Part shown: positions 5,441 through 24,253 of the stretch, one piece after another | How the letters are laid out: the number at the start of each line of letters is the position of its first letter | How positions within the stretch are numbered: the stretch's first letter is position 1 | NCBI GenBank assembly: GCA_963754875.1 | Contig: CAVWHO010000020.1 | Location: 175,374-239,373, forward strand | DNA: 64,000 bases | Reading direction: 5' to 3' | Origin: Nitrospirota bacterium | GTDB lineage: Bacteria > Nitrospirota > UBA9217 | The notes under the pieces: model-generated | The model's database searches: none | Told to the model about the DNA's origin: nothing | Seen by the model: only the letters and a program-made list of their open reading frames with translations | Position numbers and translations under genes: made by a program

Positions 5441-5461
5441 AAAAGGGAAGGCGGAGAATTC

Positions 5462-6169: not shown

Positions 6170-6189
6170 TAAGCTTACGAAAAATTAAA

Positions 6190-7733: not shown

Positions 7734-8072
7734 AGCGCCTCCCTAATGTTTAAATAATATACAGTATGTATATTTATAAATCAATTCTTTTTCTTTATTG
7801 CCTAGCCGGAACCAACGTTTTGGTTGCAACAGTGTGCCGTCGTCCGGACGCGATATCTCGCAGGTTGATCCACACTTTATTTCCTTTACGCATTATTACC
7901 GTTTAACTCCATCACGAGTTCGATATCTGTTATTTTCTGGCCTGTCCTGAATTGTTCTGCACTTTATTATTCAGCATATGGACACTAGTAATCGGGTTTC
8001 GTGGGGAAATGTTATAGTAATTATGAGGGCTCTTTTCAATGCGAGTGACATCTGATTGAGTGGAGGATTGAC

Positions 8073-9014
8073 ATGTTTGGATGCAGAACCATTTTGGGGT
8101 TTGTTCTCGCGTGCATTATCGGCTTGACCGGATGCAATGGAAAAGAAGCGCCGCGAAAAATTAGTCTTGAAAAGCGCCAAGAGACGCCCCGTCAAATTGA
8201 TCTTCGGGAGCTGCATCTCCGCATCGCCGTCGGAGGCATGATCACCCCAAAGGCCGGGTACGGGTATTACCGGCAGTTTTTGGACTACATCGGCGAAAAG
8301 GTCGGCATGCAGGTGGATTTTGTGGACCGCGATAATTATGCGGAGATCAACAAGCTGGTCAATACCGGCAACGTTGATGTCGCCTTTGTCTGCGGCGGCC
8401 CTTATGTGATAGGGCATGATAAATTCGGCATGGAGCTCCTGGCAGCGCCTCAGGCCTACGGCAAGACTGTCTACTATTCCTATATCATCGTTAACAGAGA
8501 CAGTACCATAAGCGGGTTCGAAGGTTTGCGAGGAAAAAGCTTTGCCTTTACCGATCCTCTTTCCAACTCAGGCACGCTCGTGCCCACCTATATGCTTGCG
8601 CGGATGCATGAAACACCAAACACCTATTTCAGCAAAACCATCTTCACACAGACCCACGATAAATCAATCAAGGCTGTTGCGCAGGGAATCGTGGACGGTG
8701 CGTCGGTGGACAGCCTCATCTGGGAATATGAGAACCGCGCGGATCCGGAATTTACTTCCCGGACAAGAATCATTAAAAAGTCTCTCCCCTACGGCATCCC
8801 GCCCGTTGTCGTTCGTCCGGGTTTAGACCCCAAATTGAAGGAACAAATTCGTGTGGTCTTACTGAACGCCCATCATGATCCTAAAGGAAAGGCAATTCTG
8901 GCGGGCATGATGATCGATAAGTTCGTTCCTATCGGGGACAGCGCTTACGACTCCATCAGGGAAATGGATAAATGGATCGCGGACCATAGAGAAAAAGGAA
9001 ACAAAAAACCGTAA
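8073..9014 (+). CDS. PhnD/SsuA-like periplasmic substrate-binding lipoprotein
   Basis: Lipobox LTGC; resembles the phosphonate-binding-protein fold often paired with sensor proteins. Confidence 0.6.
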   Translation: MFGCRTILGFVLACIIGLTGCNGKEAPRKISLEKRQETPRQIDLRELHLRIAVGGMITPKAGYGYYRQFLDYIGEKVGMQVDFVDRDNYAEINKLVNTGNVDVAFVCGGPYVIGHDKFGMELLAAPQAYGKTVYYSYIIVNRDSTISGFEGLRGKSFAFTDPLSNSGTLVPTYMLARMHETPNTYFSKTIFTQTHDKSIKAVAQGIVDGASVDSLIWEYENRADPEFTSRTRIIKKSLPYGIPPVVVRPGLDPKLKEQIRVVLLNAHHDPKGKAILAGMMIDKFVPIGDSAYDSIREMDKWIADHREKGNKKP

Positions 9015-9019
9015 GCATT

Positions 9020-10354
9020 ATGCAATCACTTCGACTCAAGACAAAATTTTTTATCGGAACGATCAGCATCGTCGTGCTCCTTGGCCTGGCGATGATCCTG
9101 TTTGTCGAGATTGTCGTGTATAAACAGTTGTATGCCAATCTTGAAAAAAGGGGCATATTCATGGCCCGCAAGATCGCAACGGACAGCATTGACCCCATTT
9201 TGACGGAAAAGTTTTTTGAGCTCCAGATGCTGATCAAGGACCAGAAAAACGCGGAAGATGATATAGAATATATTTTCGTTCAGAATGCACGAGGCGACGT
9301 CCTTGCGCACACGTTTGAACAGGGGTTCCCTGAAGACCTGCGACAGTTGGATGGCACCGGCAACGGCCGTACCAACGAAATCCAGCGTCTCTCCACCGAG
9401 CGGGGCGTAATCCTCGATTTCCCTTCTCCACTGCTCAATGGTACGATCGGTCGGCTGCACTTGGGGCTCTCGGAAGGGCCTGTCAGGGCAGGTGTGAATA
9501 AAGTCGTGGTTCTGTTGATGTGGACCATCGTTGCTGTGCTGATCCTCGGCGGAGGATCGGCCGTGGTCCTTGCCAGGTCGATAACAAAGCCGGTCCACCT
9601 CCTTGCCGTTGCAGCCCAGTCCCTCGAGCACGGCAATCTTAACACCAGGGTTCCGGTCCGCACACAGGACGAGGTAGGACAGCTGGCAATGGCCTTCAAC
9701 AGGATGGCCGAGACCTTGATGTTTGTAAATGATGCTCTTAGTGCCGGTGAAAAAAAGCTACGGGATATCACGTCGCATCTGGCGGAAGGACTCTATGTGA
9801 TGGACTTGAACGGGAAGATCACGTTTATGAATCCGGAGGCTGCGAATCTTCTGGGACGGAGCATGGACGAACTGAATGAGGGCGGACATTTTCTCATTCA
9901 TAACCGAAAAGCCGATGGAACGCCGTTGCCGCTGGAAGAGTGCCGGATGCATAACGTCATCCGTACCGGGATACGATTCGTTTCGACAGAGGAAGTGTTT
10001 ACCCGAAAGGACGGTACGGTCTTTCCGATAGCCGTTGTCAGCAGTCCCCTTTTTGAAGAAGGGAAAATTGTGGGGTCCGTGACAGCTTTCCGGGACATCA
10101 GCAGGCAGAAAGAGCTGGAGCAGGACCGGGACCAGTTGATTCTCGCCTACCGGGATGCCCTTGAACGCGTCAAGACCTTGAAAGGATTCATTCCGATCTG
10201 TTCTTCCTGCAAAAAAATCCGCAACGACAGCGGATTCTGGAGCCAGATCGAAGCATATATCAGCGAGCATTCAGATGTGGAGTTCAGTCACGGCATTTGT
10301 CCGGATTGTGCGCAAAAGCTTTATCCCGAATTTTACAAAGAAAAAGATCCTTAG
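9020..10354 (+). CDS. membrane signalling protein with TM, HAMP, PAS and a C-terminal 4-Cys module, and no kinase or other known output domain
   Basis: Two TM segments, HAMP (VHLLAVAAQSLEHGNLNTRV...), PAS (ITSHLAEGLYVMDLNGKITFMN...), ending IPICSSCKKIRNDSGFWSQIEAYISEHSDVEFSHGICPDCAQK. Starts 6 nt after the upstream stop (translational coupling). Confidence 0.7.
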   Translation: MQSLRLKTKFFIGTISIVVLLGLAMILFVEIVVYKQLYANLEKRGIFMARKIATDSIDPILTEKFFELQMLIKDQKNAEDDIEYIFVQNARGDVLAHTFEQGFPEDLRQLDGTGNGRTNEIQRLSTERGVILDFPSPLLNGTIGRLHLGLSEGPVRAGVNKVVVLLMWTIVAVLILGGGSAVVLARSITKPVHLLAVAAQSLEHGNLNTRVPVRTQDEVGQLAMAFNRMAETLMFVNDALSAGEKKLRDITSHLAEGLYVMDLNGKITFMNPEAANLLGRSMDELNEGGHFLIHNRKADGTPLPLEECRMHNVIRTGIRFVSTEEVFTRKDGTVFPIAVVSSPLFEEGKIVGSVTAFRDISRQKELEQDRDQLILAYRDALERVKTLKGFIPICSSCKKIRNDSGFWSQIEAYISEHSDVEFSHGICPDCAQKLYPEFYKEKDP

Positions 10355-10620
10355 CCTTGGACTTCTTGACCATGAAATAATCATGTCCAGATGCGCTGTT
10401 ATTATCACTAAGCCACGGGGCCCGTCTGTGTTCCACGTCATGCTGCTTTTTCCCGCCTCGCCATCTTCGTTGTCATTGCAAGATGCTTCGAGATAAAGGA
10501 CGTTTCCGATGCCGGCATTTGCTTTGTTCGACAGAATGTGATATTAATCGAATAGGGCAGGGTATGAAACAGGACCTGTGTCTCTTTCCGTCTTTCAAAC
10601 TGGGGGGAGGTATCCATATC

Positions 10621-12243
10621 ATGAAGGCGTCGGACTTGCTTGTCAAATGTCTCGAAAATGAAGGTGTGGAGTATATCTTCGGCATTCCCGGCGAAGAAAC
10701 ACTCGACCTCATGGAGTCGCTCAGGACCTCTCCCATAAAATTTATCATCACCCGTCATGAACAAGCCGCGGCCTTTATGGCGGACGCGTACGGCCGGCTT
10801 ACCGGCAGGGCCGGGGTCTGCATTGCGACGCTGGGACCGGGCGCTACAAACCTTTTGACGGGCGTAGCCGACGCCTATCTCGATGCTTCCCCCGTGGTCG
10901 CGATTACGGGACAGGCCGATCTCAAGCGGATCCACAAGGAATCGCATCAGTACATCAATATCGTCGATATTTACGAGAGCGTGACCAAGTGGAACGGCAG
11001 GATCGAGACGCCGGAAGTCATCCCCGAAATGGTACGGAAGGCCTTCAAACTTGCTGAAGCGGAAAAGCCGGGCCCTACGCACCTGGAGCTTCCCGAGAAC
11101 ATCGCCTCAATGAAAACGCATGAGATGTATGCGGCAATGATCCCGCCCATCAGGGCCAGGAGGAGCTCTCCTGACCGGCAGTCCCTCAGGAAAGCCGCTG
11201 ATTTGATAGAGTCGGCAAATTTCCCCGTCATCCTGGCAGGTCACGGCATTGTTCGCAAGGCGGCAAACGCCCAACTCCAGCAGTTCGCCGAACTGCTGTG
11301 CGTCCCCGTGGTAACAACCTTCATGGGTAAGGGGGCGATCAGCGCTAAAAGCCCGGCCTGCATCGGAAGCCTCGGCCTCTCGAACGACCTCCAGATCGAG
11401 GACGTTTTCAGCCGCGCCGACCTCATCATCGCCGCCGGGTACGGCCTCGTCGAATATGCTCCGAAAAACTGGAACCCGAAAATCGACAAGCGCATCATTC
11501 ACATTGATTTCACGTCGAGCGAGGTCGATCTCCACTACGTGCCCGAGGTCGAGATCGTTTCGGACATCCGGGAGAGCATTGAGCTCCTCGAGGGCATGCT
11601 CAGCACGAACAAGAAGAGCCAGTGCGCCATCGACCTCCATGCCAACTTCCGCGGGGAATTTGAACGCATCGGCTCGGAGAAGACCTGGCCCGTCCGGCCC
11701 CCGCAGGTGTTATACGGCATCAGGAAGGTGCTCGGAGATCCCGATATTTTGATCTCGGACGTGGGAACGTGCAAATTCTGGGCGGCGAAATTCTACCCCG
11801 TCTATGCCAACAATACGTTCATTTTGTCCAACGGATTCGCATCCATGGGGTTTTCCCTCCCGACAGCTATGGTAGCCAAGCTCGTGCACCCCGACCGCAA
11901 GGTGGTCGCCCTCTCCGGAGACGGCGGTTTTCTCATGAACCTGCAGGACCTCGAGACCGCGGTCCGGTTGAAGCTCAACATGGCCATTGTCGTTTTCAAC
12001 GACAGCAGCTACAACCTGATCAAATGGAAATCCATGAAGAAGTTCGGCGCCTCCTATGGCGTCGATTTCACGAACCCTGATTTTATCAAGGTTGCCGACG
12101 GTTTCGGCGCCATCGGCATGAGGCTGAAAACAGCTGAAGACTTTGAGCCCATGCTCCGTGAGGCCCTGACCAGGGACGTGCCGGTCATCATTGACGTTCC
12201 GATCGATTATTCGGACAATGAACTTATTTACAAACTCCTTTAG
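10621..12243 (+). CDS. alsS: thiamine-pyrophosphate enzyme, catabolic acetolactate synthase (AlsS)-like
   Basis: HEQAAAFMADAYGRLTGRAGVCIATLGPGATNL and C-terminal VPVIIDVPIDYSDN closely parallel B. subtilis AlsS. RBS GGGGGAGG is before the ATG at 10621; the ORF-track start at 10483 lacks an RBS. Confidence 0.75.
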   Translation: MKASDLLVKCLENEGVEYIFGIPGEETLDLMESLRTSPIKFIITRHEQAAAFMADAYGRLTGRAGVCIATLGPGATNLLTGVADAYLDASPVVAITGQADLKRIHKESHQYINIVDIYESVTKWNGRIETPEVIPEMVRKAFKLAEAEKPGPTHLELPENIASMKTHEMYAAMIPPIRARRSSPDRQSLRKAADLIESANFPVILAGHGIVRKAANAQLQQFAELLCVPVVTTFMGKGAISAKSPACIGSLGLSNDLQIEDVFSRADLIIAAGYGLVEYAPKNWNPKIDKRIIHIDFTSSEVDLHYVPEVEIVSDIRESIELLEGMLSTNKKSQCAIDLHANFRGEFERIGSEKTWPVRPPQVLYGIRKVLGDPDILISDVGTCKFWAAKFYPVYANNTFILSNGFASMGFSLPTAMVAKLVHPDRKVVALSGDGGFLMNLQDLETAVRLKLNMAIVVFNDSSYNLIKWKSMKKFGASYGVDFTNPDFIKVADGFGAIGMRLKTAEDFEPMLREALTRDVPVIIDVPIDYSDNELIYKLL

Positions 12244-12301
12244 AGTGAGCGTCGGGAATCATCAAAGAAATGACGCAAGAAGGCAAAGAGGTGCTTAAAC
12301 C

Positions 12302-12781
12302 ATGAAATGGGCTGTGCTTTTGCTTTTTGGAACTATCGGCTTGGCCTCGCTTGTCAGCGGGACAAGGTGGGGACTTGAATCCTACCCCCTTTATCGTGAC
12401 AGCGTGCCGACCCAGGGCACGGTCGTCGATCAGTACCAGAAAAAGGACGATAAAACATCGGAGGTCGTGTATTTCCCGGTGATAGAATTTTCCACTTCGG
12501 GCATGGAAAAAGTTCGCTTCCGGGGCAGTGCAGGGTCCTTCAGCAGCCCCGGATATGAGTTGGGAACTGTGGTCGATGTCCTTTATGATCCCCGCAATCC
12601 TGCGAACGCGAAGATGGGCAGCATTAAGCAATTGTGGATGGGACCCTTAACAGCAGCGGGCATCGGGCTTGTGCTTTTGCTGCTGAGCATAGTTCTTTTC
12701 GTGAAAATCGGAAGCTTTGAAAAACATCTCCGATCCATGCGACCTCGTACAAAAGAGGACAGGGGGGAGCGAACGGTTTAA
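12302..12781 (+). CDS. DUF3592-family membrane protein
   Basis: TM, beta-rich domain (EVVYFPVIEFSTSGMEKVRF...VVDVLYDPRNP), then TM; typical DUF3592 pattern. Confidence 0.6.
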   Translation: MKWAVLLLFGTIGLASLVSGTRWGLESYPLYRDSVPTQGTVVDQYQKKDDKTSEVVYFPVIEFSTSGMEKVRFRGSAGSFSSPGYELGTVVDVLYDPRNPANAKMGSIKQLWMGPLTAAGIGLVLLLLSIVLFVKIGSFEKHLRSMRPRTKEDRGERTV

Positions 12782-12980
12782 AAGGCCGTACAACCTTGTT
12801 CATCCACTTCAACGAGTTTTTTCCTTATCGAACACCGTTTCCCTCTCGAAGCCGCCATCCGACTGACTGTGCGCGGGTATTCATTGTATATATAAAAAAT
12901 AAACAAATTGTATAATAAATTAACAGATCTGAACGCTCCCCTTTGGTAAACCCTCTGAATTTGCCGTTGTTTTCGCTGGC

Positions 12981-13003: not shown

Positions 13004-13116
13004 AGCATCAATGCCGCGATGTGCGAAAGCATGAAGTGGGCCCCTTCCTCCCCTTAGGCAGTTCTTGCTTCGTGCCTTCACAACGCTGCGGCATACTTCT
13101 CTGAGAGGTGACAAAA

Positions 13117-14261
13117 TGAGCGAAGTTGCTGCGCAGGTTTCCGTCGACGAACTGAAACGGGTCGGGATCATCGGCCAGAAACAGAAGGATTTTTATCTCA
13201 TTCGACTTCGGACCGTGGGCGGCGGAATGACCGCCGAGGAACTGAACACGGTCTCGGAGGTCTCGCGGAAATACGGGAACGGGCAGGTGCACCTCACGAC
13301 ACGCCAGGCAATCGAGATCCACAACATCCATGTCGAGAATCTTCAGGCCGCCCGTGAGGAAATAGAGGCGTGTGGGATCGTGCTTGGCGTATGCGGGCCG
13401 CGCGGCAGGGGGATCGTGGCCTGCCCCGGAAACGCAACATGCACCTCGGGTCTGATCGAAACCAGGGAACTGGCCGCAGAGTTCGACGAGGCCTATCTGC
13501 GCATGCCTGCTCCGCACAAGTTCAAAATCGGCATTTCCGGTTGCCCGAACAATTGTTCTAAACCTATTGAGAACGATGTCGGCATTATGGGCGGCGTACT
13601 GCCGCGTTGGCACAAGGACACCTGCACTGCCTGCCAGCTCTGCGTAAACATTTGTCCAACCAGGGCGATCGAGCAAAAAGGCGGGGATTTTGTCCTCGAC
13701 AGCGGCAAGTGCCTCCTGTGCGGGCTTTGCATCAGTAACTGCCCGTCGTCGACATGGACTGCAGAGAAGACCGGTTACACGCTCTATCTCGGCGGGACCA
13801 TGGGCAAGAAACCCCGCCTCGGGACCAGGGCAAAAGTATTAATTGAAACAAAGGAAGAGCTTGTAGCTGCGGTCCGCAAGGCGTTCGACTTTTACGTTGC
13901 CCACGGCAGGAAAAAAGAGCGTTTCGGCCACACCCTCGACAGGATCGGAGTGGACCAGGCTTTTGCCCAAATCTTTTCAGACAAGACTGAAAAGCCGGTG
14001 TCAGCACAGGATTCTACGGCAGCGTCACCAATAAAAAGGAACCTCCTCGACCTGAGAGGCGTCTGCTGTCCCATGAATTTCGTGAAGGCAAAACTTGCAA
14101 TGGACAAGATCAGGAACGGCGAAACGATTGAGTTTTACCTTGACGATGGGGAGCCGATCGTAAATGTCACCCGCAGTCTCAAAGATGAGGGACATCAGGT
14201 GCTGAGTGTAGTGCCGCAGGACGCATATTTCAAAGTACTGGTCGAGAAGAAGATCTCCTGA
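13117..14261 (+). CDS. sulfite/nitrite-reductase-family protein (ferredoxin-like half domain, siroheme-type 4Fe-4S site and 2x[4Fe-4S] ferredoxin insert; AsrC/DsrA-like) fused to a C-terminal TusA-like domain
   Basis: CPGNATCTSG...GCPNNC siroheme/FeS motifs. CTACQLCVNICP and CLLCGLCISNCP are ferredoxin motifs. C-terminal LDLRGVCCPMNFVKAKLAMDKIRNGETIEFYLDD is a TusA/SirA-like fold. RBS GAGAGGTG is before the ATG at 13117. Confidence 0.7.
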
Positions 14262-15870: not shown

Positions 15871-17232
15871 TCACTCGCTTTCTAACCCATACTTCTTGAG
15901 CTTTCTCCAGAGGGAGACGCGATCTATGCCCAGTATCTGAGCGGCGAGGGTCTTGTTGCCGCCGACCTCGTTCAGCACCCACTTGATATAGGCTTCTTCC
16001 TGTTCATCGAGCGACGGAATTTTGCCTTCCTTTTTTCGGAACGTTTTGATGCTGAGTTCCCGCAGGTCCTCGGGCAGGTGGCCGGTCTCGATCGCTCCGC
16101 CGTTCGCGAGCGCCACGCCCCGCTCCATGATGTTCTCTAGTTCCCGTACATTGCCGGGAAAGTCGTAGTGCATGAGCAGGGCGATCACTTCTTCCGCGAT
16201 TTCGGTGACCTCTTTCTTCATAAGCACCGCATATTTTTTGAGGAAGTAGTAGGAAAGGAGGGGGATATCGTCCTTGCGTTCGACGAGCGGCGGGATGCGA
16301 AGCGAAACGACGTTCAGCCTGAAGTACAGGTCCTGACGGAATGAACCGCTTTTCATCGAATCGTGAATGTCCCTGTTCGTTGCCGCTACGAACCGTACGT
16401 CTACCTTGAGCGGGTCAATGCCCCCGACGCGCAGCACTTCCTTCTCCTGGATCACGCGCAGCAGTTTTACCTGCATGGACTGCGGCATCTCGGTCACTTC
16501 GTCCATGAACAGGGTGCCGCCCGACGCCATCTCGATCAGTCCCTTTTTCATGGCGCTCGCGCCGGTGAAGGCGCCCTTTTCGTGCCCGAACAGCTCGTTT
16601 GACAACAGCTCCTCGGTGAAGGCCCCGCAGTTGATGGCAAAGAAGGGGCCTTCCATGCGCTTGCTGTTAAGGTGGATGTATCGCGCGAAGAGTTCTTTGC
16701 CGGTTCCACTTTCTCCGGTGATCAGCACATTGCAGTCCGTGGGCGCGATTTGGCGCGCGGTCTCAAGCAGCTTCTGCATCGACGGGTCCTGGGTGATGAT
16801 CTTGACCTTGCCCTGGTAGCTTTCGAGTTGCTCGCGGAGGTGACGGTTCTCGGTCTTGAGCCTCACCTTATGCACGGCCTCCGACACGACCTTTCGCACT
16901 TCCTCCAGTTTAAACGGTTTCGCAATGTAGTAGAACGCCCCATCCTTCATGGTCTCAACGGCAGAGTCGAGCGTTGCATAACCCGTGATCATGACGACTT
17001 CCGTGTCCGGGTAAAGCTCGCGGGTCTTTTTTAGGATCTGCATGCCGTCTACTTTTTCCATACGGAGGTCTGTGAGCACGACGTCGAACTGCCGGTCTTC
17101 GAGAAGTTTAAGGGCGTTTGTTCCGCTCTGCGTGGCCGTAACGTCGTATCCTTCTTTTTTCATCACGTGCTCAAGGTTCCTGAGGGCTATCCGTTCGTCG
17201 TCGATGATGAGCAACTTACCTGAATCGGGCAT
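15871..17232 (-). CDS. sigma-54-dependent two-component response regulator (NtrC family: REC-AAA+-HTH)
   Basis: Receiver domain with DDERIAL...VLTDLRMEKVDG. GESGTGKELFARYIH, GAFTGA, C-terminal Fis HTH. Confidence 0.9.
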   Translation of the reverse strand: MPDSGKLLIIDDERIALRNLEHVMKKEGYDVTATQSGTNALKLLEDRQFDVVLTDLRMEKVDGMQILKKTRELYPDTEVVMITGYATLDSAVETMKDGAFYYIAKPFKLEEVRKVVSEAVHKVRLKTENRHLREQLESYQGKVKIITQDPSMQKLLETARQIAPTDCNVLITGESGTGKELFARYIHLNSKRMEGPFFAINCGAFTEELLSNELFGHEKGAFTGASAMKKGLIEMASGGTLFMDEVTEMPQSMQVKLLRVIQEKEVLRVGGIDPLKVDVRFVAATNRDIHDSMKSGSFRQDLYFRLNVVSLRIPPLVERKDDIPLLSYYFLKKYAVLMKKEVTEIAEEVIALLMHYDFPGNVRELENIMERGVALANGGAIETGHLPEDLRELSIKTFRKKEGKIPSLDEQEEAYIKWVLNEVGGNKTLAAQILGIDRVSLWRKLKKYGLESE

Positions 17233-17349
17233 GAATATGACTCCTTGTCAAATCTTGTGAGGACCAGAGGAACGTCTATCTGGTTCATGATGCAATCTCT
17301 GTACTTCCCCTGCCTGTAACTGAGACATCTTCTGTGATTCGTTTCTTCT

Positions 17350-18874
17350 TTAGTACTTCATCGGCAGCCGGATTAAAAAGCTCGTCCCTTTACCGGCCTC
17401 GCTGTCAACGGCGATACACCCGTCATGTTCCTCGATGATCTCATGGACGATGTACAGGCCGAGGCCCGAACCCTTTCCCACGTCTTTGGTAGTGAAGAAG
17501 GGGTCGAAAATCTTGGGAATGATGTCGACCGGGATGCCGGGACCGGTGTCCCTGATCTCGATGTCGACGGTGTCCTGGTCAAGCGTGCACTTGCCGCCGT
17601 ATTTCAGGTAATTATAAATACCGATCTTTCCGTCTTCAACGTCGTCCAGTGCCCTGCGTTTCTCCGCCTTGATCGTTACCGACCCTTCGGCAGACGTTAT
17701 GGCTTCAATAGCGTTCTTGATCAGGTTCAGGAACGCCTGCTGGATCCGCTGCTTGTCCGCGAAGATCACGATATCGTCGGGAACTGCAACGGTGATTGCG
17801 ATCCTGGTCGGGACCTGGCCCTTGATGAACTGGATCGTTTCCTCAAAGATCTTTTTGAGTACCAGCGACTCTTTCGTGAACTCCCGGTCCCGGGAAAAGT
17901 CGAGCAGGGAGCGGACGATATTTCGCGCCCGGTCTGTTTGATCGTTGATCTGATTGATCAGTTCCTGAACAAAATCAGGGTCTACGGGCCAGGAGACGTC
18001 CGCCTGTTTGCCGCGTGCTTCTTTCACTTCTTCCGCCAGGATCTGGTTCGACGTCGAGATGTTCGAAAGCGGATTGTTCAGCTCGTGGGCCACGCCGGAG
18101 AGGAGCGTGCCCAGGGACGCGAGCTTCTCGGACTGGATGAGGTGCCGCTCGTGCAGCTCCAACTCCTTCAGCATCTTATTGAAGGCCCGTGTCAGCGAGG
18201 CGATTTCCCGGTCTTTCGAGTCAATGGCAATGCGTTCAAACTTGCCTTCCGCGATGATGCCCATGCTCTCTTCAAGAGATTTCAACGGCTTCACCACCAT
18301 CCGGGACAGGATCTGGCCGATGACGATCACGGCGACGGACAGGATCAGGATCGAGATGACCAGGATGAGCTGAGAGTTCTTCAGCAGCAGCTGCAGGCTC
18401 CTCCGTTCGGTTTTAGCGATATCTTCCGCGGCCGTGATGATGTCCTTGCCCGTAGCACGGATATTGCCGGCGAGCATGAGCTTCCGTGCACTGCTATGCC
18501 TGCCTGCGAGTGCGTACTCTTCCATGAGCTCCCGATAGGTTTTCAAGCCGACCTGAAGCGACGATATCTGTTGCGACGAAGCAAAAGCCCTGAACCCGCG
18601 GATGTTGCGGTCGATGAGGTCCTGTGCCCGGGCAACGTACTGCACGTTTTCGTCATAGTCCGATTGCTGCTCGTAGAGAAAGAAATTCTTCTCGAATCGC
18701 CTGATCTTCGAGCGTCGTATCGAAAAACTCGGAGATCGCCTCGCCGACGATGATCTTCCGTTCCACGAACCGGAGTTCGAGATAGGTGAAGATCGTCAGA
18801 CCGATGATCAGGGCGACGATCGCATAGTAGCCCAGGGTGATCTTCTGTCGTATGCTGGGTTGATAATTGAACAT
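17350..18874 (-). CDS. sensor histidine kinase (TM-periplasmic domain-TM-HAMP-HisKA-HATPase) whose reading frame is interrupted near 18646..18655
   Basis: HELNNPLSNIS H-box. DTGPGIP...GSGLGLYIV G-boxes. The 73-aa ORF 18653..18874 carries TM1 and the start of the sensor domain, and the 431-aa ORF carries the rest. The two are offset by a frame change, and the downstream ORF begins with GTG at 18643. Confidence 0.75.
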
Positions 18875-18896
18875 GGTTTTCGCAAAGAGAGCTTTA

Positions 18897-18957
18897 CGTC
18901 TCAGGTCTCAAGTTTCTGGTTTTAAACTTGAGACTTGAAACTGGAGACTTGAGACAT
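18897..18957. repeat. cluster of GTCTCAAGTTT / AAACTTGAGAC motifs, including an 11-bp-arm palindrome
   Basis: gtctcaggtctcaagtttctggttttaaacttgagacttgaaactggagacttgagac. It shares a 15-mer with 21981..22030. Confidence 0.7.
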
Positions 18958-20955
18958 CTAAATCAGCACCGCATGTACGGCGTCCATCACGTTGTCGACC
19001 AGGCGAAGCTCGATGTCCTTTTTTACTTCTTCATCCAGTTCATCCACGTCGTCGCGGTTGCGGGCGGGCACGATCATGGTCTTGACCTTTGCTCGCTTGG
19101 CTGCCAGGACCTTTTCCCTGATGCCGCCCACCGGAAGTACCCGTCCCGTGAGAGTGATCTCGCCGGTCACGGCGATGTCCTTTCGCGCCGGGCGCCCGGT
19201 GAGCAGCGAGGCAAGGGCAAGGAGGATGGTGATGCCGGCCGACGGGCCGTCTTTCTGGATCGCGCCGGAAGGCACATGGACGTGGATGTCTTTCTGCTCA
19301 AAAAAATTGTCAGGGATGCCGAAGGCCTCGGCATTGCTCCTGATATAGGATAGGGCCGCCTGCGCCGACTCACGCATGACGTCGCCGAGGGATCCGGTGA
19401 TGATCAACTCTTTCGTGCCGTTCATTTTTGCTGCTTCCACGAAAATGATGTCTCCGCCTGTTTCGGTCCGCACGAGTCCTGTTGCGACGCCGATGCGGTC
19501 TTGCTCCTCGACCACGTCGAAGTGGTACTTCCGTTTGCCGAGATACGTCTCGACCGCGGCCGGCGTAATCACGACGGTTTCCGGCAGACCATGCCGGTCG
19601 ACAGAGGATTTGGCGATCTTTCTGCAGATGGTAGCGATCGTGCGCTCGAGGTTCCGGATGCCTGCTTCCCGGGTGTACTCCCGGATGATTTTTGCTACGG
19701 CGTCACCGGTAAAAACGACGTCGTCCGGAGACAGACCTTTCTCGCGGATCTGTTTCGGACAGAGGAACCGTGAAGCGATAAGCGCTTTTTCCTCCTCTGT
19801 GTAACCCGAGAACTCGATTACTTCCATGCGGTCCCGAAGCGGGGCCGGGACGGTTTCAAGCACGTTCGCGGTCAGGATAAACATGACGCCTGAAAGGTCG
19901 AAGGGAGCGTCCAGATAGTGGTCCACGAACGCGCGGTTCTGCTCCGGATCGAGCACTTCGAGCAGCGCCGATGCAGGGTCGCCCTTGAAGTCACGTCCGA
20001 TCTTGTCAAGTTCGTCGAGCATGATCACCGGGTTGGCCGATTCGACGCGGCGGATCTCCTCTATCACCCTGCCGGGCTTCGCCCCGACGTACGTGCGGCG
20101 GTGCCCCCGGATGTCTGCTTCGTCCTTGAGGCCGCCGAGGGCGATGCGGGTGAACTTTCTGCCGAGGGCCCGCGCAATGGAACGGCCGAGGGACGTCTTG
20201 CCTGTACCCGGAGGACCGGCGAAACAGAGGACCGAGCCCTTCGTGTTTGCCCGCACTGTCTTTGTATCCAATGCCTTCTTGATGGTGTCACGGACTTCAT
20301 CGAGCTTAAAGGGCTTCGCAATATAGTGGAAAGCCCCTTTTTGCATTGCCTCGATGGCGGAGGGGACCGTGGCAAAGCCGGTTATCATGACGACCCGGGC
20401 GTCCGGGTACCGGACCTTGATCCGGTCCAGGAGGTCCATGCCGTCGATTTTCCCCATGCGAAGGTCGGTCAGCACTACATCGAACTCGTCCATGTCGAGC
20501 TCTTTGAGCGCATCTTCGCCGCCTGCTACGGCAACCACGTCATACTCTTCCTTCGTAAGCACGTGAGCAAGGTTCTTTCGCGCGATCTCTTCATCATCGA
20601 CGATCAGGATTCGTGCCTTTTTGCTCATCCTGAGCACCTTCACGGCCAGGTGCTCGAGGACCCGCTCCTTGATCGTGCTGAGGCCGTAGTGGTTTTCGTT
20701 CAGGATACGCTCGGCACGGGAGAGGTCGAGATTGTCTTCGGTCTTTTTGTTCCACGGCAGACAGGCGAGGTAGTCGATGTAGGTCACACCGATGGTGTAT
20801 TCGGCAGACGATGGGCTGATCTTTGCCAGGATCGAGAGCTCCTGATCAGCGATCTTCTCCACCGGCCCGGGCATGCCGGCGCGAGATATTTTCTGGCGCA
20901 GCTCGGCAATGATAAGTTCGTGCTCGTTGTCGTCCGATTTTTTAAAAAATTTCAT
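18958..20955 (-). CDS. Lon-family ATP-dependent protease lacking the N-terminal substrate domain and carrying an inserted response-regulator receiver domain (linker-REC-AAA+-protease)
   Basis: YIDYLACLPWNKKTEDNLDLSRAERILNENHYGLSTIKERVLEHLAV is the Lon pre-AAA helical linker. ARILIVDDEEIARKNL...VLTDLRMGKIDGMDLL...AKPFKL is a CheY-like REC. GPPGTGKTSLGRSIA...GHRRTYVGAKPGR is Lon AAA+. DGPSAGITIL...GGIREKVLAAKRA supplies the Ser-Lys dyad. The ORF track begins at 20988; the ATG at 20955 has GAAGG upstream. Confidence 0.8.
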   Translation of the reverse strand: MKFFKKSDDNEHELIIAELRQKISRAGMPGPVEKIADQELSILAKISPSSAEYTIGVTYIDYLACLPWNKKTEDNLDLSRAERILNENHYGLSTIKERVLEHLAVKVLRMSKKARILIVDDEEIARKNLAHVLTKEEYDVVAVAGGEDALKELDMDEFDVVLTDLRMGKIDGMDLLDRIKVRYPDARVVMITGFATVPSAIEAMQKGAFHYIAKPFKLDEVRDTIKKALDTKTVRANTKGSVLCFAGPPGTGKTSLGRSIARALGRKFTRIALGGLKDEADIRGHRRTYVGAKPGRVIEEIRRVESANPVIMLDELDKIGRDFKGDPASALLEVLDPEQNRAFVDHYLDAPFDLSGVMFILTANVLETVPAPLRDRMEVIEFSGYTEEEKALIASRFLCPKQIREKGLSPDDVVFTGDAVAKIIREYTREAGIRNLERTIATICRKIAKSSVDRHGLPETVVITPAAVETYLGKRKYHFDVVEEQDRIGVATGLVRTETGGDIIFVEAAKMNGTKELIITGSLGDVMRESAQAALSYIRSNAEAFGIPDNFFEQKDIHVHVPSGAIQKDGPSAGITILLALASLLTGRPARKDIAVTGEITLTGRVLPVGGIREKVLAAKRAKVKTMIVPARNRDDVDELDEEVKKDIELRLVDNVMDAVHAVLI

Positions 20956-21229
20956 GTGCCTTCGTAAAAAACAATAAAGTGGTTGCATTTTACAACGTTC
21001 AGATTATCAATGCAACACTCAAAAAATCTTTTTTATTCAACGCGTAGCATGACTTTAGAGATAAAGCATTGCATTCTAAAACAATGGTGGACGAAAGTAC
21101 GATTTTTTATATTTATGTATTGTATCATTTTTTCAATGCATTATGCCGAGAAAAGGTTTTGGCACGAAGGTTGTAATTAGGAATAGTGAAAGAGCACAAG
21201 AAAACATCACGGGAAAGGAGGAACAGAGT

Positions 21230-21406
21230 ATGAAAACCTTAATGGAGAAATTAGAAACCACCATGGCGGCAGCTGCATTTGCAGAGGAAGGCGAGTTCGA
21301 GACCGCCCTCCAGATCCTGAGGGAAGATCAGCCGAGAAAAACCGACAGGCCGTCTGTTCATGATTATAAGAGACCATCTGCCAGAAAAGAACTGCGAGCC
21401 GACTGA
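21230..21406 (+). CDS. small hypothetical protein with an N-terminal TMAAAAFAEEGEFETA motif
   Basis: AAAGGAGG RBS 8 nt upstream. Shares its motif with the next gene. Confidence 0.5.
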   Translation: MKTLMEKLETTMAAAAFAEEGEFETALQILREDQPRKTDRPSVHDYKRPSARKELRAD

Positions 21407-21464
21407 TATTGCTGGCAACGCCTCAAGCGACTGTGAAAAAGCTGCATTCGTCAATAGAGGGACC

Positions 21465-21971
21465 ATGGAAACGACAAAGATCAAAAAGATGATGAAAATG
21501 GTGGAGCAGGCCCTGACAGCAGCATCATTTGCCGAAGAAGGGGAAGCGGAGACCGCCAATGCATTACTGTGGGAATCGCGGCGGGTGCTGCTGGGGCTCA
21601 AGGCAGGGCAGATAGATCCCAAAACACTGAAATACGCTCTCAACTCAGCCAGGCGGATCAATGCGCATCTCGACATTCTCTACGTTACCGGAGCGGTCAG
21701 CCAGAGTAAGGGTACGATTGATCCCGTACTTGAGCCATTTGTGTCGGAACTAACTGCAGCAGGGATTCCTTTTCGCCTGATCCCCCGGTCCGGTTGTCTT
21801 AAACAGCAGATAATCGACTACTCGAACAGTGAGAAGGAAATCCTGTTCGCCGTCATTGAGTCCCCGGCTACATTGGACGATGACTGCAATAAGCGCGACA
21901 AGGTGCTTGCTGAACTGTGGCGCCAACTGAAGTGTCCGCTCGTCGTGGTTATGGACGGGGCTGGGGCGTAA
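21465..21971 (+). CDS. protein with the same N-terminal motif (LTAASFAEEGEAETA) followed by a Usp-like alpha/beta domain
   Basis: AGAGGGA RBS. The C-terminal region LDILYVTG...ILFAVIESP...VVVMDG resembles the universal stress protein / adenine-nucleotide alpha-hydrolase fold. Confidence 0.55.
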   Translation: METTKIKKMMKMVEQALTAASFAEEGEAETANALLWESRRVLLGLKAGQIDPKTLKYALNSARRINAHLDILYVTGAVSQSKGTIDPVLEPFVSELTAAGIPFRLIPRSGCLKQQIIDYSNSEKEILFAVIESPATLDDDCNKRDKVLAELWRQLKCPLVVVMDGAGA

Positions 21972-21980
21972 TTAAGATAA

Positions 21981-22030
21981 GTCTCAAGTTTCATGTCTCA
22001 GGTCTCAAGAAACTCAAGTTTCAAGTCAAA
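21981..22030. repeat. second cluster of GTCTCAAGTTT-type motifs
   Basis: gtctcaagtttcatgtctcaggtctcaagaaactcaagtttcaagtc. Lies directly after the stop of the Usp-like gene. Confidence 0.7.
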
Positions 22031-22076
22031 CCAGAAAACTCAATACAATATTATTTCAATTCAAGGAGGATTTATC

Positions 22077-22328
22077 ATGGCACACAGCACCACGAAGAAA
22101 AAGCCGGTCGCTGCGATGATCGTTATGGGCATCATATCCCTGGCGCTCTATGCGGCGCTCCTGCTCAAACAGGATATGGTAAACAGTATTTTTGCCAAGG
22201 GCGGGCTGTACGCGCTGCTGCCGATCATCACGGCATTCATTTTTTCGTTTTTCCACGGCTCGTTTACCGGGCATTTCTGGACCGTACTCGGCGTAGAAGC
22301 GTCAAAGAAAAAAATGGAGGTAAAATAA
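22077..22328 (+). CDS. small 2-TM membrane protein immediately upstream of the TauE/SafE permease
   Basis: AGGAGGA RBS. Its stop lies 1 nt before the next ATG, suggesting coupling. Confidence 0.55.
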   Translation: MAHSTTKKKPVAAMIVMGIISLALYAALLLKQDMVNSIFAKGGLYALLPIITAFIFSFFHGSFTGHFWTVLGVEASKKKMEVK

Positions 22329-22329
22329 C

Positions 22330-23412
22330 ATGGACGATATCGTGACGAATTTCATCAATCTTGACGCTATTACCATCCTCTATCTGTTCGGTGTCGGATT
22401 TGTCGGCGGTCTGGTCAGCGGATTTATCGGTTCGGGCGGCGCTTTTGTTCTCACGCCGGGCATGATGAGCCTGGGCGTCCCTGGTCTCGTTGCAGTGGCG
22501 AGCAATATGTGCCACAAGTTTCCCAAAGCGCTCGTGGGTTCAATCAAACGTGCAAAATACGGGCAGGTTGACGTAAAGCTCGGCATTGTACTGGGTATTT
22601 CGGCTGAAGCCGGCGTGCTCTACGGCGCCCAGATCCAGGAAAACATCAAAAAAGCCTTCGGTGATGCCGGTTCCAATCTGTACGTGAGCGTGGCTTTTGT
22701 TGTGATTTTGGCAACGGTCGGCGGCTTCGTTCTTTATGACGCGTGGAAAACCTACAAGGCCGGAAACTCCCATGCCGTGGAAACGACCGGGAAACTGGCC
22801 AAGTGGGTGCAGTCCATCAATATCCCCGGCACCATGGTCTATTTCAAGAGCATCAATGCACGCGTATCTATCCTCTTCACGATCCCCCTCGGGTTTGCCA
22901 CCGGCATGCTGGCAGCCACGATCGCGGTCGGCGGCTTCATCGGCGTCCCCTCTATGATCTACGTCCTCGGTGCACCCAGCCTCATGGCCTCGGCCACGGA
23001 GCTGGTGATCGCTTTCGTCATGGGCCTCGGCGGTTCGCTCAAGTATGCCATGCACGGCATGGTCGACATCCGCCTTGCCATGATCATCCTCGCGGGATCG
23101 CTCTTCGGCATTCAGCTCGGAGCAATCGGCACAACCTATGTGAAGCCCTTCATGATCAAGGTCGTCATGGGCCTGATCATGGTAATCGTATTGTTCAGCC
23201 GGGGCCTCATGGTCCCTGTGTATCTTGCCCAGCTCGGTCTCATTGATAAATTGGGCGAGGGAACGGTGTCGTTGCTCAAGACCACGAGCTTTGCGATAAT
23301 GATCTTTGCACTGATGCTCGGTGCCTTCATCGTCCTTCGTGCCATGTGGCAGGGACGCCAGGCCGAGAGATTACAGCATGCGACTGGAGCCCTGGAACGT
23401 GGGGAAGTATAG
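22330..23412 (+). CDS. TauE/SafE (TSUP) family anion (sulfite/sulfonate) exporter-type permease
   Basis: GFIGSGGAFVLTPGMM, the duplicated 4-TM repeats and an overall 8-10 TM topology. Confidence 0.75.
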   Translation: MDDIVTNFINLDAITILYLFGVGFVGGLVSGFIGSGGAFVLTPGMMSLGVPGLVAVASNMCHKFPKALVGSIKRAKYGQVDVKLGIVLGISAEAGVLYGAQIQENIKKAFGDAGSNLYVSVAFVVILATVGGFVLYDAWKTYKAGNSHAVETTGKLAKWVQSINIPGTMVYFKSINARVSILFTIPLGFATGMLAATIAVGGFIGVPSMIYVLGAPSLMASATELVIAFVMGLGGSLKYAMHGMVDIRLAMIILAGSLFGIQLGAIGTTYVKPFMIKVVMGLIMVIVLFSRGLMVPVYLAQLGLIDKLGEGTVSLLKTTSFAIMIFALMLGAFIVLRAMWQGRQAERLQHATGALERGEV

Positions 23413-24253
23413 GAAGATCCTTGTTGCTGTAGACGGATCGGAATCGAGCCGGAACGCCCTTCACCAGGCGTTCCGGTTTGCTATTGATGAGAAATGCTGG
23501 ATCACCGTGACGTCGGTGGTGCCCCCGTACGAGGGGGAGATAGAGATCCTTGGCGTCAGGGACATCCGCGCTGCCTTGCGGAAACCTTGTGAAGAGGCCC
23601 TGGATGATGCCCAACGGTTCGCGGACGAGGAGCGCGCTCTCATCAAGACGGTTTGCGAAGAAGGGGAGGCGCATGAGCGCATTGTCGAACTTGCCGACGC
23701 GGAGAACTGTGACCTCATCATCATGGGGCGGCGGGGGCTCCGGCCCGTCGAGCGCATGCTGGTCGGGCGCGTCACGGCGCGGGTCATCGGCCATACGCAT
23801 CTCGATGTCCTGGTTGTCCCGAACAATACGACCGTCGGCTGGAAAAAAATCGTGCTGGCGACCGACGGTTCGAAGTACAGCGCGGCAGCGGCAGAACGGG
23901 CGATCGCCTTTGCCAAATCCTACGGCGGGGAACTGAAAGTCCTGTCGGTTGCTGACCTGCCTCCGGAATTTTATGCCGAAGCCCCCCAAGCAGTAGAGGA
24001 TCTTGTGCACAAAGCGAAAGGGTTCGTGTCTGCTGTAAAAAAACAGGCCGAGGCTGTGGGAGTGCCGGCAGAGACCTTTGTGGGGGAGGCGGAAGCGTAT
24101 CAGGCGATCAATAACCTTAGGTGGGATCAGAAGGCCGACATCATCGTCCTGGGGTCGCATGGCAGGACCGGTCTGCGCCGTCTCCTCATGGGAAGCGTCA
24201 CTGAAAAAGTCATCGGATATGCGTCCTGTCCCGTGCTCGTTGTCAAAACGTAA
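23378..24253 (+). CDS. tandem universal stress protein (UspA) domain protein
   Basis: Two Usp repeats (KILVAVDGSESS... and KIVLATDGSKYS...GSHGRTGLRRLLMGSVTEKV). The start is uncertain (ATG 23378 or GTG 23399). Confidence 0.75.
   Translation: MRLEPWNVGKYRKILVAVDGSESSRNALHQAFRFAIDEKCWITVTSVVPPYEGEIEILGVRDIRAALRKPCEEALDDAQRFADEERALIKTVCEEGEAHERIVELADAENCDLIIMGRRGLRPVERMLVGRVTARVIGHTHLDVLVVPNNTTVGWKKIVLATDGSKYSAAAAERAIAFAKSYGGELKVLSVADLPPEFYAEAPQAVEDLVHKAKGFVSAVKKQAEAVGVPAETFVGEAEAYQAINNLRWDQKADIIVLGSHGRTGLRRLLMGSVTEKVIGYASCPVLVVKT

What the first reader, a model, noticed from the sequence alone, without database searches (positions are those of the whole stretch)
15871..20988. Receiver-gated Lon protease in an operon with its own sensor kinase and sigma-54 response regulator
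The 18958..20955 product is collinear with LonA from the pre-AAA helical linker (YIDYLACLPWNKK...HYGL...KERVLEHLAV) through the AAA+ module and the Ser-Lys protease domain. The ~240-residue N-terminal substrate-recognition domain is missing, and a complete CheY-like receiver domain (phospho-acceptor context VLTDLRMGKIDG, KPF motif) sits exactly between the linker and Walker A. Downstream on the same strand, with gaps of ~80 and ~115 nt, lie a periplasmic-sensing histidine kinase (itself frameshifted) and an NtrC-type REC-AAA-HTH regulator. One kinase therefore appears wired to two receivers, one driving sigma-54 transcription and the other plausibly switching an AAA+ protease. A phosphorylation-controlled Lon replacing the normal N-domain recognition logic is, to my knowledge, not a characterised system.
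Basis: partly seen in the sequence, partly recalled or inferred. Interest (0 to 1): 0.78.

Follow-up and report, generated by a model that had tools for sequence, protein, structure and literature searches.

The report
Receiver-domain Lon protease signalling operon
This is a real Lon protease with a phosphorylation-receiver domain spliced into its ATPase, sitting beside a sensor kinase and a sigma-54 activator, but the same module was already described in Desulfovibrio vulgaris in 2011, so this is a new member of a known and biochemically untested system.

Summary
Window 18958-20955 (-) encodes a 665-aa LonA that lacks the N-terminal substrate-binding domain. It carries a complete CheY-like receiver (REC, aa 114-236) inserted cleanly between AAA+ helix alpha0 and strand beta1/Walker A.

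A membrane histidine kinase follows at 17350-18874, broken by one extra base at 18707/18708. An NtrC-type sigma-54 activator follows at 15871-17232.

The fusion is not an artefact. At least 240 protein clusters from Nitrospirota and Desulfovibrionales share it, and it is under purifying selection.

The two receivers are paralogues, 57% identical, and match at all five alpha1 kinase-specificity positions. This supports one kinase feeding two receivers.

The divergent operon (two small proteins, a small membrane protein, TauE, tandem Usp) has a conserved sigma-54 promoter. The window's best match to the published DVU3305 binding motif lies in the same intergenic region.

The locus is therefore an orthologue of the D. 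vulgaris DVU3303-3305 "three-component system". Rajeev et al. (2011) described it and proposed phospho-dependent protease activity. Trotter et al. (2023) reported cofitness above 0.9 for the three genes.

Phospho-control of the protease remains untested anywhere I could find. Verdict: a new member of a known kind, of moderate interest.

The parts
18958..20955 (-). REC-Lon coding sequence (665 aa). It is a LonA without the N-terminal substrate-binding domain and with an inserted receiver.
   Evidence: Most homologues are 665 aa. The ATG at 20988 overlaps the conserved UAS, so 20955 is preferred.
20617..20955 (-). aa 1-113: helical bundle plus AAA+ helix alpha0 (KERVLEHLAVKVL). This corresponds to the segment just before the AAA+ core of LonA.
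   Evidence: Aligns to 3m6a residues 11-107 and 7p6u residues 251-349. Model helices 6-26, 30-45, 51-65, 78-88 and 93-111 have pLDDT 81-91 over blocks 11-100 and 72 over 101-110.
20248..20616 (-). aa 114-236: inserted CheY-like receiver. D120 and D121 bind metal, D164 is the phospho-acceptor, and T192 and K214 complete the active site.
   Evidence: Pfam 3.7e-29. These residues are invariant or nearly so in 85 homologues. Canonical (beta-alpha)5 fold with pLDDT 83-90 in nine of eleven 10-residue blocks. dN/dS 0.064.
19546..20247 (-). aa 237-470: AAA+ module and lid. Walker A is GPPGTGKT 247-254, the pore-loop residue is Y289, and Walker B is D314/E315.
18961..19536 (-). aa 474-665: Lon_C protease domain with catalytic S572 (KDGPSAG) and K615.
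   Evidence: Pfam 9.6e-82. S572 and K615 are invariant.
18898..18941 (-). Strong RNA hairpin in the Lon-kinase spacer, with no T-run after it.
   Evidence: MFE -27.8 kcal/mol for the 96-nt spacer segment, z = -4.2. Function not tested.
17350..18874 (-). Sensor histidine kinase. After repair it is 507 aa, with TM helices 14-34 and 168-190, a ~130-aa extracytoplasmic region, then HAMP, HisKA and HATPase_c. One extra A at 18707/18708 interrupts it.
   Evidence: dN/dS 0.076 against L001. The sensor region has no Pfam family.
15871..17232 (-). NtrC-type sigma-54 enhancer-binding response regulator (REC, AAA+ with GAFTGA, Fis-type HTH).
20982..20996 (.). Upstream activator site GTTGCATTTTACAAC, 27 nt upstream of the REC-Lon ATG.
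   Evidence: Best hit in the whole 64-kb window to a matrix built from 34 published DVU3305-family sites: 18.8 bits, against a published median of 19.4. Conserved at the same offset in L001-L004, L006 and L010.
21068..21082 (.). Second, weaker activator-site-like element, ATTGCATTCTAAAAC.
   Evidence: 8.0 bits. Conserved among Nitrospirota loci.
21160..21174 (+). Sigma-54 promoter TGGCAC-N5-TTGT for the divergent operon.
   Evidence: Conserved near the same offset (201-204 nt from the Lon ATG) in L001-L004, L006 and L010.
21230..24253 (+). Divergent target operon: up1 (21230-21406), up2 (~21465-21971, weakly Usp-like), a small membrane protein (21993-22328), a TauE/SafE anion exporter (22330-23412) and a tandem Usp (~23378-24253).
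   Evidence: Pfam. Same order as DVU3302-3298. Syntenic in most Nitrospirota REC-Lon loci.

Best explanation
The locus is a Nitrospirota orthologue of the Desulfovibrio vulgaris DVU3298-3305 stress-signalling cluster.

Proposed pathway:
1. A membrane histidine kinase senses an extracytoplasmic cue.
2. It phosphorylates two paralogous receivers.
3. One receiver belongs to an NtrC-type activator. That activator binds GTTGCA-N3/4-(T/A)(G/C)CAAC sites in the shared intergenic region. It fires a sigma-54 promoter driving a divergent operon (two small proteins, a small membrane protein, a TauE anion exporter and a tandem Usp).
4. The other receiver is spliced into an N-domain-less LonA, between helix alpha0 and strand beta1/Walker A, through three-residue connectors.
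5. Phosphorylation of D164 most likely changes ATP binding or hexamer assembly, and so switches regulated proteolysis on.

Shown here: the domain anatomy, the insertion point, intact catalytic residues, purifying selection, conserved synteny, the promoter and activator sites, and shared specificity residues.

Inferred: phosphotransfer to both receivers, the direction of the switch, and the substrates.
For: Domains and insertion point.

Catalytic residues: REC D120/D121/D164/T192/K214, Walker A K253, Walker B D314/E315, Y289, S572 and K615 are invariant or nearly so across 85 homologues down to 46% identity.

Structure: the model has pLDDT 83.4 and pTM 0.71. Alpha0 (93-111) leads through 3 residues to REC beta1. 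REC alpha5 (218-238) leads through 3 residues to AAA+ beta1. The Lon part superposes on solved LonA chains with TM up to 0.87.

Family: at least 240 clusters at 90% identity all carry PF00072 plus Lon_C.

Selection: dN/dS is 0.082 for Lon, 0.064 for its REC, 0.076 for the kinase and 0.044 for the activator.

Shared kinase: the two receivers are 57% identical. They form sister clades distinct from a second nearby activator. The five alpha1 specificity positions are I-A-N-H-V in both. Mean identity at these positions is 0.69 for 28 partner pairs, against 0.19 for 22 non-partner receivers in the same loci.

Synteny: a kinase/activator pair is close by in most of the 37 REC-Lon loci. The TauE/Usp operon accompanies it in most Nitrospirota loci.

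Regulatory region: sigma-54 promoter and activator sites.

Literature: DVU3305 binds the DVU3302/3303 intergenic region. The authors proposed that DVU3303 needs phosphorylation to be protease-active (PMC3333781). The three genes have cofitness above 0.9 (PMC10102598).
Against: - No biochemical test of phosphotransfer or phospho-dependent proteolysis exists, here or in the papers I found.
- The kinase is frameshifted in this window. The pathway may be inactive in this organism unless that is a sequencing error.
- REC-Lon is the first gene of the operon. The transposon cofitness could therefore reflect polarity on the kinase and activator; this caveat is my inference.
- In D. vulgaris, mutants of the signalling genes are fitter in chlorate, whereas a mutant of the regulon gene DVU3299 is less fit. 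A simple 'activator turns on the transporter' reading does not explain this.
- The monomer model says nothing about the hexamer or about which state is active.
- I did not compare the window directly with the DVU3303 sequence.
Confidence: 0.6

Rival explanations
1. Inverse logic, as in CpdR. The unphosphorylated REC-Lon is the active protease, removing the activator or regulon proteins when there is no signal. Phosphorylation shuts it off, so the signal activates transcription and stops degradation together.
For: Precedent from established knowledge: the Caulobacter CckA-ChpT branch phosphorylates CtrA and the receiver CpdR, and only unphosphorylated CpdR primes ClpXP. The anatomy found here is compatible with either sign. 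It could also help explain why signalling mutants and the DVU3299 mutant have opposite chlorate phenotypes.
Against: If Lon opposed the activator, Lon mutants should behave opposite to kinase and activator mutants. Instead cofitness is above 0.9, although polarity could mask this. There is no direct data.
Confidence: 0.2
2. The Lon receiver is mainly a phosphate sink or competitor that tunes phosphorylation of the activator. Proteolysis is constitutive and not controlled by phosphorylation.
For: Branched pathways with sink receivers are established (for example the CheY1/CheY2 pair in Sinorhizobium). The two receivers share specificity residues, so they would compete for the kinase.
Against: A sink needs no AAA+ protease. 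The insertion sits at a fixed site next to the nucleotide pocket with three-residue connectors. It is conserved, with all protease and ATPase residues intact, across two phyla. That argues for coupling rather than a passive appendage.
Confidence: 0.1
3. The receiver replaces the lost N domain as a substrate-recognition module. Phosphorylated receivers pair through the alpha4-beta5-alpha5 face, so REC-Lon~P captures the phosphorylated paralogous activator and degrades it. This would produce a pulse.
For: The N-terminal recognition domain is missing. The two receivers are most alike in the C-terminal half, which includes alpha4-beta5-alpha5: for example FHYIAKPFKLDEVR against FYYIAKPFKLEEVR.
Against: The same-direction cofitness of Lon and the activator argues against it. 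There is no interaction data. High similarity in that region is common among NtrC-family receivers.
Confidence: 0.07
4. Chimeric assembly or mis-join artefact, or a degenerate pseudo-receiver.
For: The window does contain at least one indel, the kinase frameshift.
Against: The same fusion with the same borders occurs in at least 240 clusters, including complete genomes of cultured Pseudodesulfovibrio and Maridesulfovibrio. dN/dS of the receiver is 0.064. All five receiver active-site residues are conserved.
Confidence: 0.01

Closest known systems
DVU3303-DVU3304-DVU3305 'three-component system' of Desulfovibrio vulgaris Hildenborough, with its target operon DVU3302-3298 (Rajeev 2011, Kazakov 2015, Trotter 2023)
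   Same: Shares a receiver-containing truncated Lon, a histidine kinase and a sigma-54 response regulator. The divergent five-gene operon ends in a membrane/anion-transporter gene and a UspA gene. The GTTGCA..TGCAAC activator motif lies in the shared intergenic region, at about -27 of the Lon gene, as reported at -28 for T. yellowstonii.
   Different: Different phylum (Nitrospirota MAG relatives). It is about 50% identical to the Desulfovibrionales REC-Lons I could fetch. In several Desulfovibrionales loci the kinase-activator pair is convergent rather than co-directional. The kinase is frameshifted here. I did not compare the window with DVU3303 itself.
Canonical LonA (E. coli, B. subtilis, Meiothermus taiwanensis, Thermus thermophilus, human LONP1)
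   Same: Shares the helical bundle before the AAA+ core, the AAA+ module, lid and S16 protease with a Ser-Lys dyad. It is about 55-60% identical over the AAA+ and protease parts to bacterial Lons. It exceeds the TIGR00763 cutoff, and TM reaches 0.87 against solved chains.
   Different: It has no LON substrate-binding N domain or long coiled coil. A 122-residue receiver is inserted between alpha0 and beta1. No solved Lon has this.
NtrC-family REC-AAA+ activators (NtrC, NtrC1, DctD)
   Same: A CheY-like receiver of the same subfamily is covalently linked to an AAA+ ring ATPase. In those proteins phosphorylation controls ring assembly (established knowledge). The Lon receiver is 57% identical to the neighbouring activator's receiver.
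   Different: Here the receiver is an internal insertion within the AAA+ N-terminal region, not an N-terminal domain with a coiled-coil linker. The ATPase belongs to the protease (HCLR) type, not the sigma-54 activator type.
Receiver-type adaptors of AAA+ proteases (CpdR and RssB with ClpXP)
   Same: Two-component phosphorylation controls regulated proteolysis. In Caulobacter, one phosphorelay feeds both a transcription factor and a protease controller (established knowledge).
   Different: Those receivers are separate adaptor proteins acting on ClpXP. Here the receiver is part of the protease polypeptide, and the protease is Lon.

Membership tests
LonA (endopeptidase La, TIGR00763) | AAA+ module with Walker A/B and an aromatic pore loop | tested here: met
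   Pfam AAA 3e-24 and Lon_lid. GPPGTGKT, D314/E315 and Y289 are invariant.
LonA (endopeptidase La, TIGR00763) | C-terminal S16 protease domain with a Ser-Lys dyad | tested here: met
   Lon_C 9.6e-82. S572 and K615 are invariant.
LonA (endopeptidase La, TIGR00763) | N-terminal LON substrate-binding domain (PF02190) | tested here: not met
   No hit at E<=0.01. The protein starts at the equivalent of B. subtilis Lon construct 3m6a residue ~11, or T. thermophilus Lon residue ~251.
LonA (endopeptidase La, TIGR00763) | Whole-protein score above the curated cutoff | tested here: met
   739.4 bits against a cutoff of 608, in two stretches that skip the receiver.
Two-component response regulators (CheY-like receiver) | (beta-alpha)5 fold with the acidic pair, phospho-acceptor Asp, Thr/Ser and Lys | tested here: met
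   Response_reg 3.7e-29. D120, D121, D164, T192 and K214 are present. Predicted fold.
Two-component response regulators (CheY-like receiver) | Phosphorylated by a cognate histidine kinase | not testable with these tools
   Only indirect evidence: an adjacent kinase, and alpha1 specificity positions shared with the partner activator's receiver.
DVU3303-3305 three-component system | A REC-Lon gene linked to a histidine kinase and a sigma-54 response regulator | tested here: met
   Conserved in most of 37 REC-Lon loci.
DVU3303-3305 three-component system | Divergent operon with hypothetical proteins, a membrane/anion transporter and a UspA protein | tested here: met
   up1, up2, small membrane protein, TauE and tandem Usp, compared with the DVU3302-3298 descriptions.
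DVU3303-3305 three-component system | Activator-binding motif GTTGCRAWWTGCAAC in the shared intergenic region | tested here: met
   The best matrix hit in the 64-kb window is at 20982-20996, at 18.8 bits. The mean of the maxima in 50 shuffles was 13.2 and the highest was 20.6. Motif source.
DVU3303-3305 three-component system | Direct sequence orthology to DVU3303, DVU3304 and DVU3305 | not tested
I compared only with other Desulfovibrionales REC-Lons (about 50% identity, same insertion point).
Sigma-54 enhancer-binding proteins (the neighbouring regulator) | Sigma54_activat AAA+ domain with the GAFTGA loop, a DNA-binding HTH and a -24/-12 target promoter | tested here: met
   Sigma54_activat 6.9e-70 and HTH_8 1.5e-12. 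GAFTGA is in the translation. TGGCAC-N5-TTGT lies at 21160 and is conserved.

The most novel reading that the evidence does not exclude
An AAA+ protease is gated directly by two-component phosphorylation, through a receiver spliced between the adenine-contacting helix alpha0 and Walker A. Aspartyl phosphate would then control ATP binding or hexamer assembly of Lon itself, with the receiver taking the place of the lost N-domain logic. Receiver-receiver pairing with the paralogous activator might also be used to select substrates. No such mechanism has been shown experimentally for any Lon.
Probability: 0.4. Interest if true: 0.65.

Novelty: new member of a known kind. Interest (0 to 1): 0.4.

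Why it matters
If the receiver really gates Lon, it would be a built-in link between a sensor kinase and regulated proteolysis. That differs from the separate adaptor proteins (CpdR, RssB) known for ClpXP. It would also be a natural example of controlling an AAA+ machine by a domain inserted at its nucleotide pocket.

The family is widespread in sulfate-reducing Desulfovibrionales and in Nitrospirota. It has a genetically tractable representative in D. vulgaris, where mutant phenotypes are already known. The question is therefore directly testable.

For this window, the value is mainly correct annotation: 'endopeptidase La' hides a response regulator. It also adds a well-defined regulon, comprising the activator sites, the sigma-54 promoter and the TauE/Usp operon.

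Tried and rejected
- The first structure prediction used 51 close homologues. It gave pLDDT 59.7 and pTM 0.30 with an unfolded AAA+ module, so the junctions could not be interpreted. A second run with 85 more diverse homologues worked. It is a monomer and no coordinates were available, so I could not assess receiver position in the hexamer or the distance to the nucleotide site.
- Foldseek against the PDB returned only plain Lon chains.
- The sigma-70 scan did not support a promoter for the REC-Lon operon. My hand-found TTGCAT-17-TAAAAT overlapping the first activator site matches only 8 of 12 positions, so I do not rely on it.
- The kinase's extracytoplasmic region and up2 gave no significant Pfam family.
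- Five literature searches found no biochemical study of a receiver-containing Lon. A 2008 survey of serine-protease architectures does not mention it.
- The chimera and pseudo-receiver readings are rejected.
- A long-standing kinase pseudogene is rejected. dN/dS is 0.076 and there are no other lesions.
- Single versus repeated origin of the insertion is unresolved. A neighbour-joining tree of the Lon part separates all 34 REC-Lons from 44 canonical Lons by one split. The canonical sample lacks Nitrospirota and Desulfobacterota Lons, however. The receiver tree groups Desulfovibrio Lon receivers with Desulfovibrio activator receivers.


Full report
OBSERVATION. The three minus-strand genes exist as described.

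The first gene (18958-20955, 665 aa) scores as Response_reg (3.7e-29), AAA (3e-24), Lon_lid and Lon_C (9.6e-82), with no LON_substr_bdg hit. NCBIfam's LonA model TIGR00763 is exceeded (739 bits against a cutoff of 608), in two stretches that skip the receiver. An alternative ATG at 20988 would add 11 residues. Most homologues are 665 aa, and that ATG lies inside a conserved regulatory site, so I use 20955.

A residue-level alignment to B. subtilis and T. thermophilus Lon places query 17-113 and 237-659 on contiguous Lon sequence. The receiver (aa 114-236) is therefore a clean ~122-residue insertion. It lies between helix alpha0 (KERVLEHLAVKVL) and strand beta1 (KGSVLCFAGPPGTGKT), and nothing is removed.

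The N-terminal 113 residues correspond to the helical segment kept in the N-truncated Lon constructs used for crystallography (3m6a, 4ypl, 6on2).

NOT AN ARTEFACT. Two database searches returned 240 clusters at 90% identity, and every one carries PF00072 together with Lon_C. They come from Nitrospirota MAGs and from cultured Pseudodesulfovibrio, Maridesulfovibrio, Salidesulfovibrio and Paucidesulfovibrio. They are named only 'endopeptidase La', 'S16 family serine protease' or 'response regulator'.

In a library clustered at 50% identity, roughly 25-30 representatives match the N-helix, receiver and AAA start as one contiguous stretch.

Across 85 homologues down to 46% identity, the following are invariant or nearly so:
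- receiver residues D120, D121, D164, T192 and K214;
- Walker A K253 and Walker B D314/E315;
- pore-loop Y289;
- the protease dyad S572/K615.

dN/dS between the window and its closest relative L001 is 0.082 for the gene and 0.064 for the receiver part.

STRUCTURE. A shallow alignment gave an unusable model. A more diverse one gave mean pLDDT 83.4 and pTM 0.71. In that model:
- the receiver has the canonical (beta-alpha)5 order;
- alpha0 (93-111) runs through three residues into receiver beta1 (115-119);
- receiver alpha5 continues as a long helix (218-238) that reaches AAA+ beta1 (242-246) after three residues.

Only 234-240 and the pore loop fall below pLDDT 50. The Lon part superposes on solved LonA chains with TM up to 0.87, and no solved chain has a receiver insertion.

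From established AAA+ knowledge, alpha0 carries the Box II contacts to adenine. A tightly tethered receiver at this point is well placed to affect nucleotide binding or subunit packing. This is inference; the hexamer could not be modelled.

KINASE AND ACTIVATOR. The kinase has HAMP, HisKA and HATPase_c. Its N-terminal 73 codons are in another frame because of one extra A at 18707/18708 (CTCGAAGATC against CTCG-AGATC and equivalents in L001, L002 and L003).

After removing that base it is a 507-aa protein with TM helices at 14-34 and 168-190 and a ~130-aa extracytoplasmic region with no Pfam family. The L001 orthologue is intact at 513 aa.

The repaired gene shows dN/dS 0.076, like its neighbours. 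The lesion is therefore very recent or a sequencing error. A related long-read MAG locus (L004) has several split genes in the same cluster, which makes an error plausible.

The third gene is a complete REC-Sigma54_activat-HTH_8 activator with a GAFTGA loop.

ONE KINASE, TWO RECEIVERS. The Lon receiver is 57% identical to the activator's receiver.

In a tree of 93 receivers from 81 loci, Lon receivers and partner-activator receivers are sister groups. They are separate from a second paralogous activator found near many of these loci.

The five alpha1 positions that contact the kinase (Spo0F numbering 14, 15, 18, 21, 22, from established specificity work) read I-A-N-H-V in both window receivers. 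Over 28 partner pairs the mean identity at these positions is 0.69. For 22 non-partner receivers in the same loci it is 0.19. Desulfovibrionales pairs share IARENL, whereas Nitrospirota pairs have IARKNL or IALRNL. That pattern is what co-evolution with a shared kinase predicts.

Of 37 REC-Lon loci, most have the kinase and activator adjacent. Nitrospirota have them co-directional. Four of the five Desulfobacterota loci (L028-L030, L032) have them convergent. Three loci (L021, L034, L052) have the activator but no kinase between.

REGULATORY REGION AND REGULON. The intergenic region 20956-21229 contains TGGCACGAAGGTTGT at 21160-21174 (+). This lies about 55 nt upstream of an ATG at 21230 that has an AAGGAGG ribosome-binding site. 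The promoter lies near the same offset (201-204 nt from the Lon ATG) in L001-L004, L006 and L010. So do GTTGCATTTTACAAC (20982-20996) and ATTGCATTCTAAAAC (21068-21082).

A matrix built from 34 published DVU3305-family sites gives its best hit in the entire 64-kb window at 20982-20996. The score is 18.8 bits. The published median is 19.4, the mean of shuffle maxima is 13.2, and the highest shuffle maximum is 20.6. The site lies 27 nt upstream of the REC-Lon ATG. The published Thermodesulfovibrio yellowstonii site is at -28.

The divergent operon encodes a 58-aa protein, a ~170-aa weakly Usp-like protein, a 111-aa membrane protein, a TauE/SafE exporter and a tandem Usp. This operon is syntenic in most Nitrospirota REC-Lon loci.

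WHAT IS KNOWN. Rajeev et al. 2011 (PMC3333781) described 'a three-component system' in D. vulgaris Hildenborough:
- DVU3305 binds its own operon and the divergent DVU3302-3298 operon (hypothetical proteins, a membrane protein and a UspA protein).
- The genes are induced at high pH, on heat shock and in stationary phase.
- They noted orthologues in T. yellowstonii, Thioalkalivibrio and Dechloromonas with the motif conserved.

Kazakov et al. 2015 list the regulon. Trotter et al. 2023 found pairwise cofitness above 0.9 for the three genes. Their loss is beneficial in chlorate, whereas loss of DVU3299 is detrimental.

I found no biochemical work on the protease.

The window matches the published system in gene content, order, motif and motif position. 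I did not compare it directly with the DVU sequences.

MECHANISM. Best explanation (confidence 0.6): the kinase phosphorylates both receivers. The activator switches on the sigma-54 operon. Phosphorylation of D164 changes ATPase activity or assembly of the N-domain-less Lon and turns on regulated proteolysis of unknown substrates.

The same-direction cofitness favours Lon acting with, not against, the kinase and activator. Lon is the first gene of the operon, however, so transposon polarity could produce the same pattern (my caveat).

Rivals:
- phosphorylation inhibits the protease, as with CpdR (0.2);
- the receiver is a phosphate sink (0.1);
- the receiver recognises substrates by pairing with the activator's receiver (0.07);
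- artefact or pseudo-receiver (0.01, refuted).

The opposite signs of the signalling-gene and DVU3299 phenotypes remain unexplained.

NOVELTY AND SCORE. The system is not new: the architecture, the operon and the central hypothesis were published in 2011 and revisited in 2015 and 2023.

New here:
- the exact insertion point (alpha0 to beta1, with three-residue connectors);
- the paralogy and shared specificity residues of the two receivers;
- the breadth of the family;
- a defined promoter and activator-site layout in Nitrospirota.

I rate it a new member of a known kind, interest 0.4. Direct phospho-gating of an AAA+ protease remains an open and testable idea.

Noticed in passing
window 21230-21406 and 21465-21971; also about 25 Nitrospirota loci (e.g. 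L001 7420 and 7688, L003 5755): The first two proteins of the divergent operon share a conserved N-terminal helix motif, K-x-x-K-K-x-E-x-x-M-x-A-A-[AS]-F-A-E-[EA]-G-E-[FAH]-[ED]-T-A. It has no Pfam family. It could be a shared binding or degradation signal. It was not seen in the Desulfovibrio loci.
   Followed up: partly
window 18898-18941 (-): There is a stable hairpin in the 83-nt spacer between REC-Lon and the kinase. The 96-nt spacer segment folds at -27.8 kcal/mol with z = -4.2, and no T-run follows. It may be an mRNA-processing or stability element that sets the ratio of Lon to kinase and activator.
   Followed up: partly
L003 9-2022, L006 875-3467, L008 1695-4053, L010 1410-3797, L031, L033 and others: Many Nitrospirota REC-Lon loci carry a second, paralogous kinase and sigma-54 activator pair 4-7 kb away on the other strand. 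The activator is about 50% identical, and its receiver alpha1 reads EDEEITLKHL, a different specificity signature.
   Followed up: partly
L021 8001-10704 and around 14231: One Nitrospiraceae MAG contig carries two REC-Lon paralogues.
   Followed up: no
L004 (MFD10007.bin.2.19), 4400-12900: In this related long-read MAG, several genes of the same cluster are split by frameshifts: TauE in four pieces, Usp in three, the activator in two. Indel errors are evidently common in this kind of assembly, which bears on the window's kinase frameshift.
   Followed up: no
window 13065-14261 (+): A 398-aa protein fuses a sulfite/nitrite-reductase 4Fe-4S domain and two ferredoxin-type clusters to a C-terminal TusA sulfur-carrier domain.
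   Followed up: no
window around 7300 (-): Another sigma-54 activator-like AAA+ match lies about 11.6 kb downstream of REC-Lon, at 38% identity to the activator's AAA+ domain.
   Followed up: no
L021, L034, L052: In three loci REC-Lon is followed directly by the sigma-54 activator with no kinase between them. The kinase gene must lie elsewhere, or the pair may be served by another kinase.
   Followed up: no
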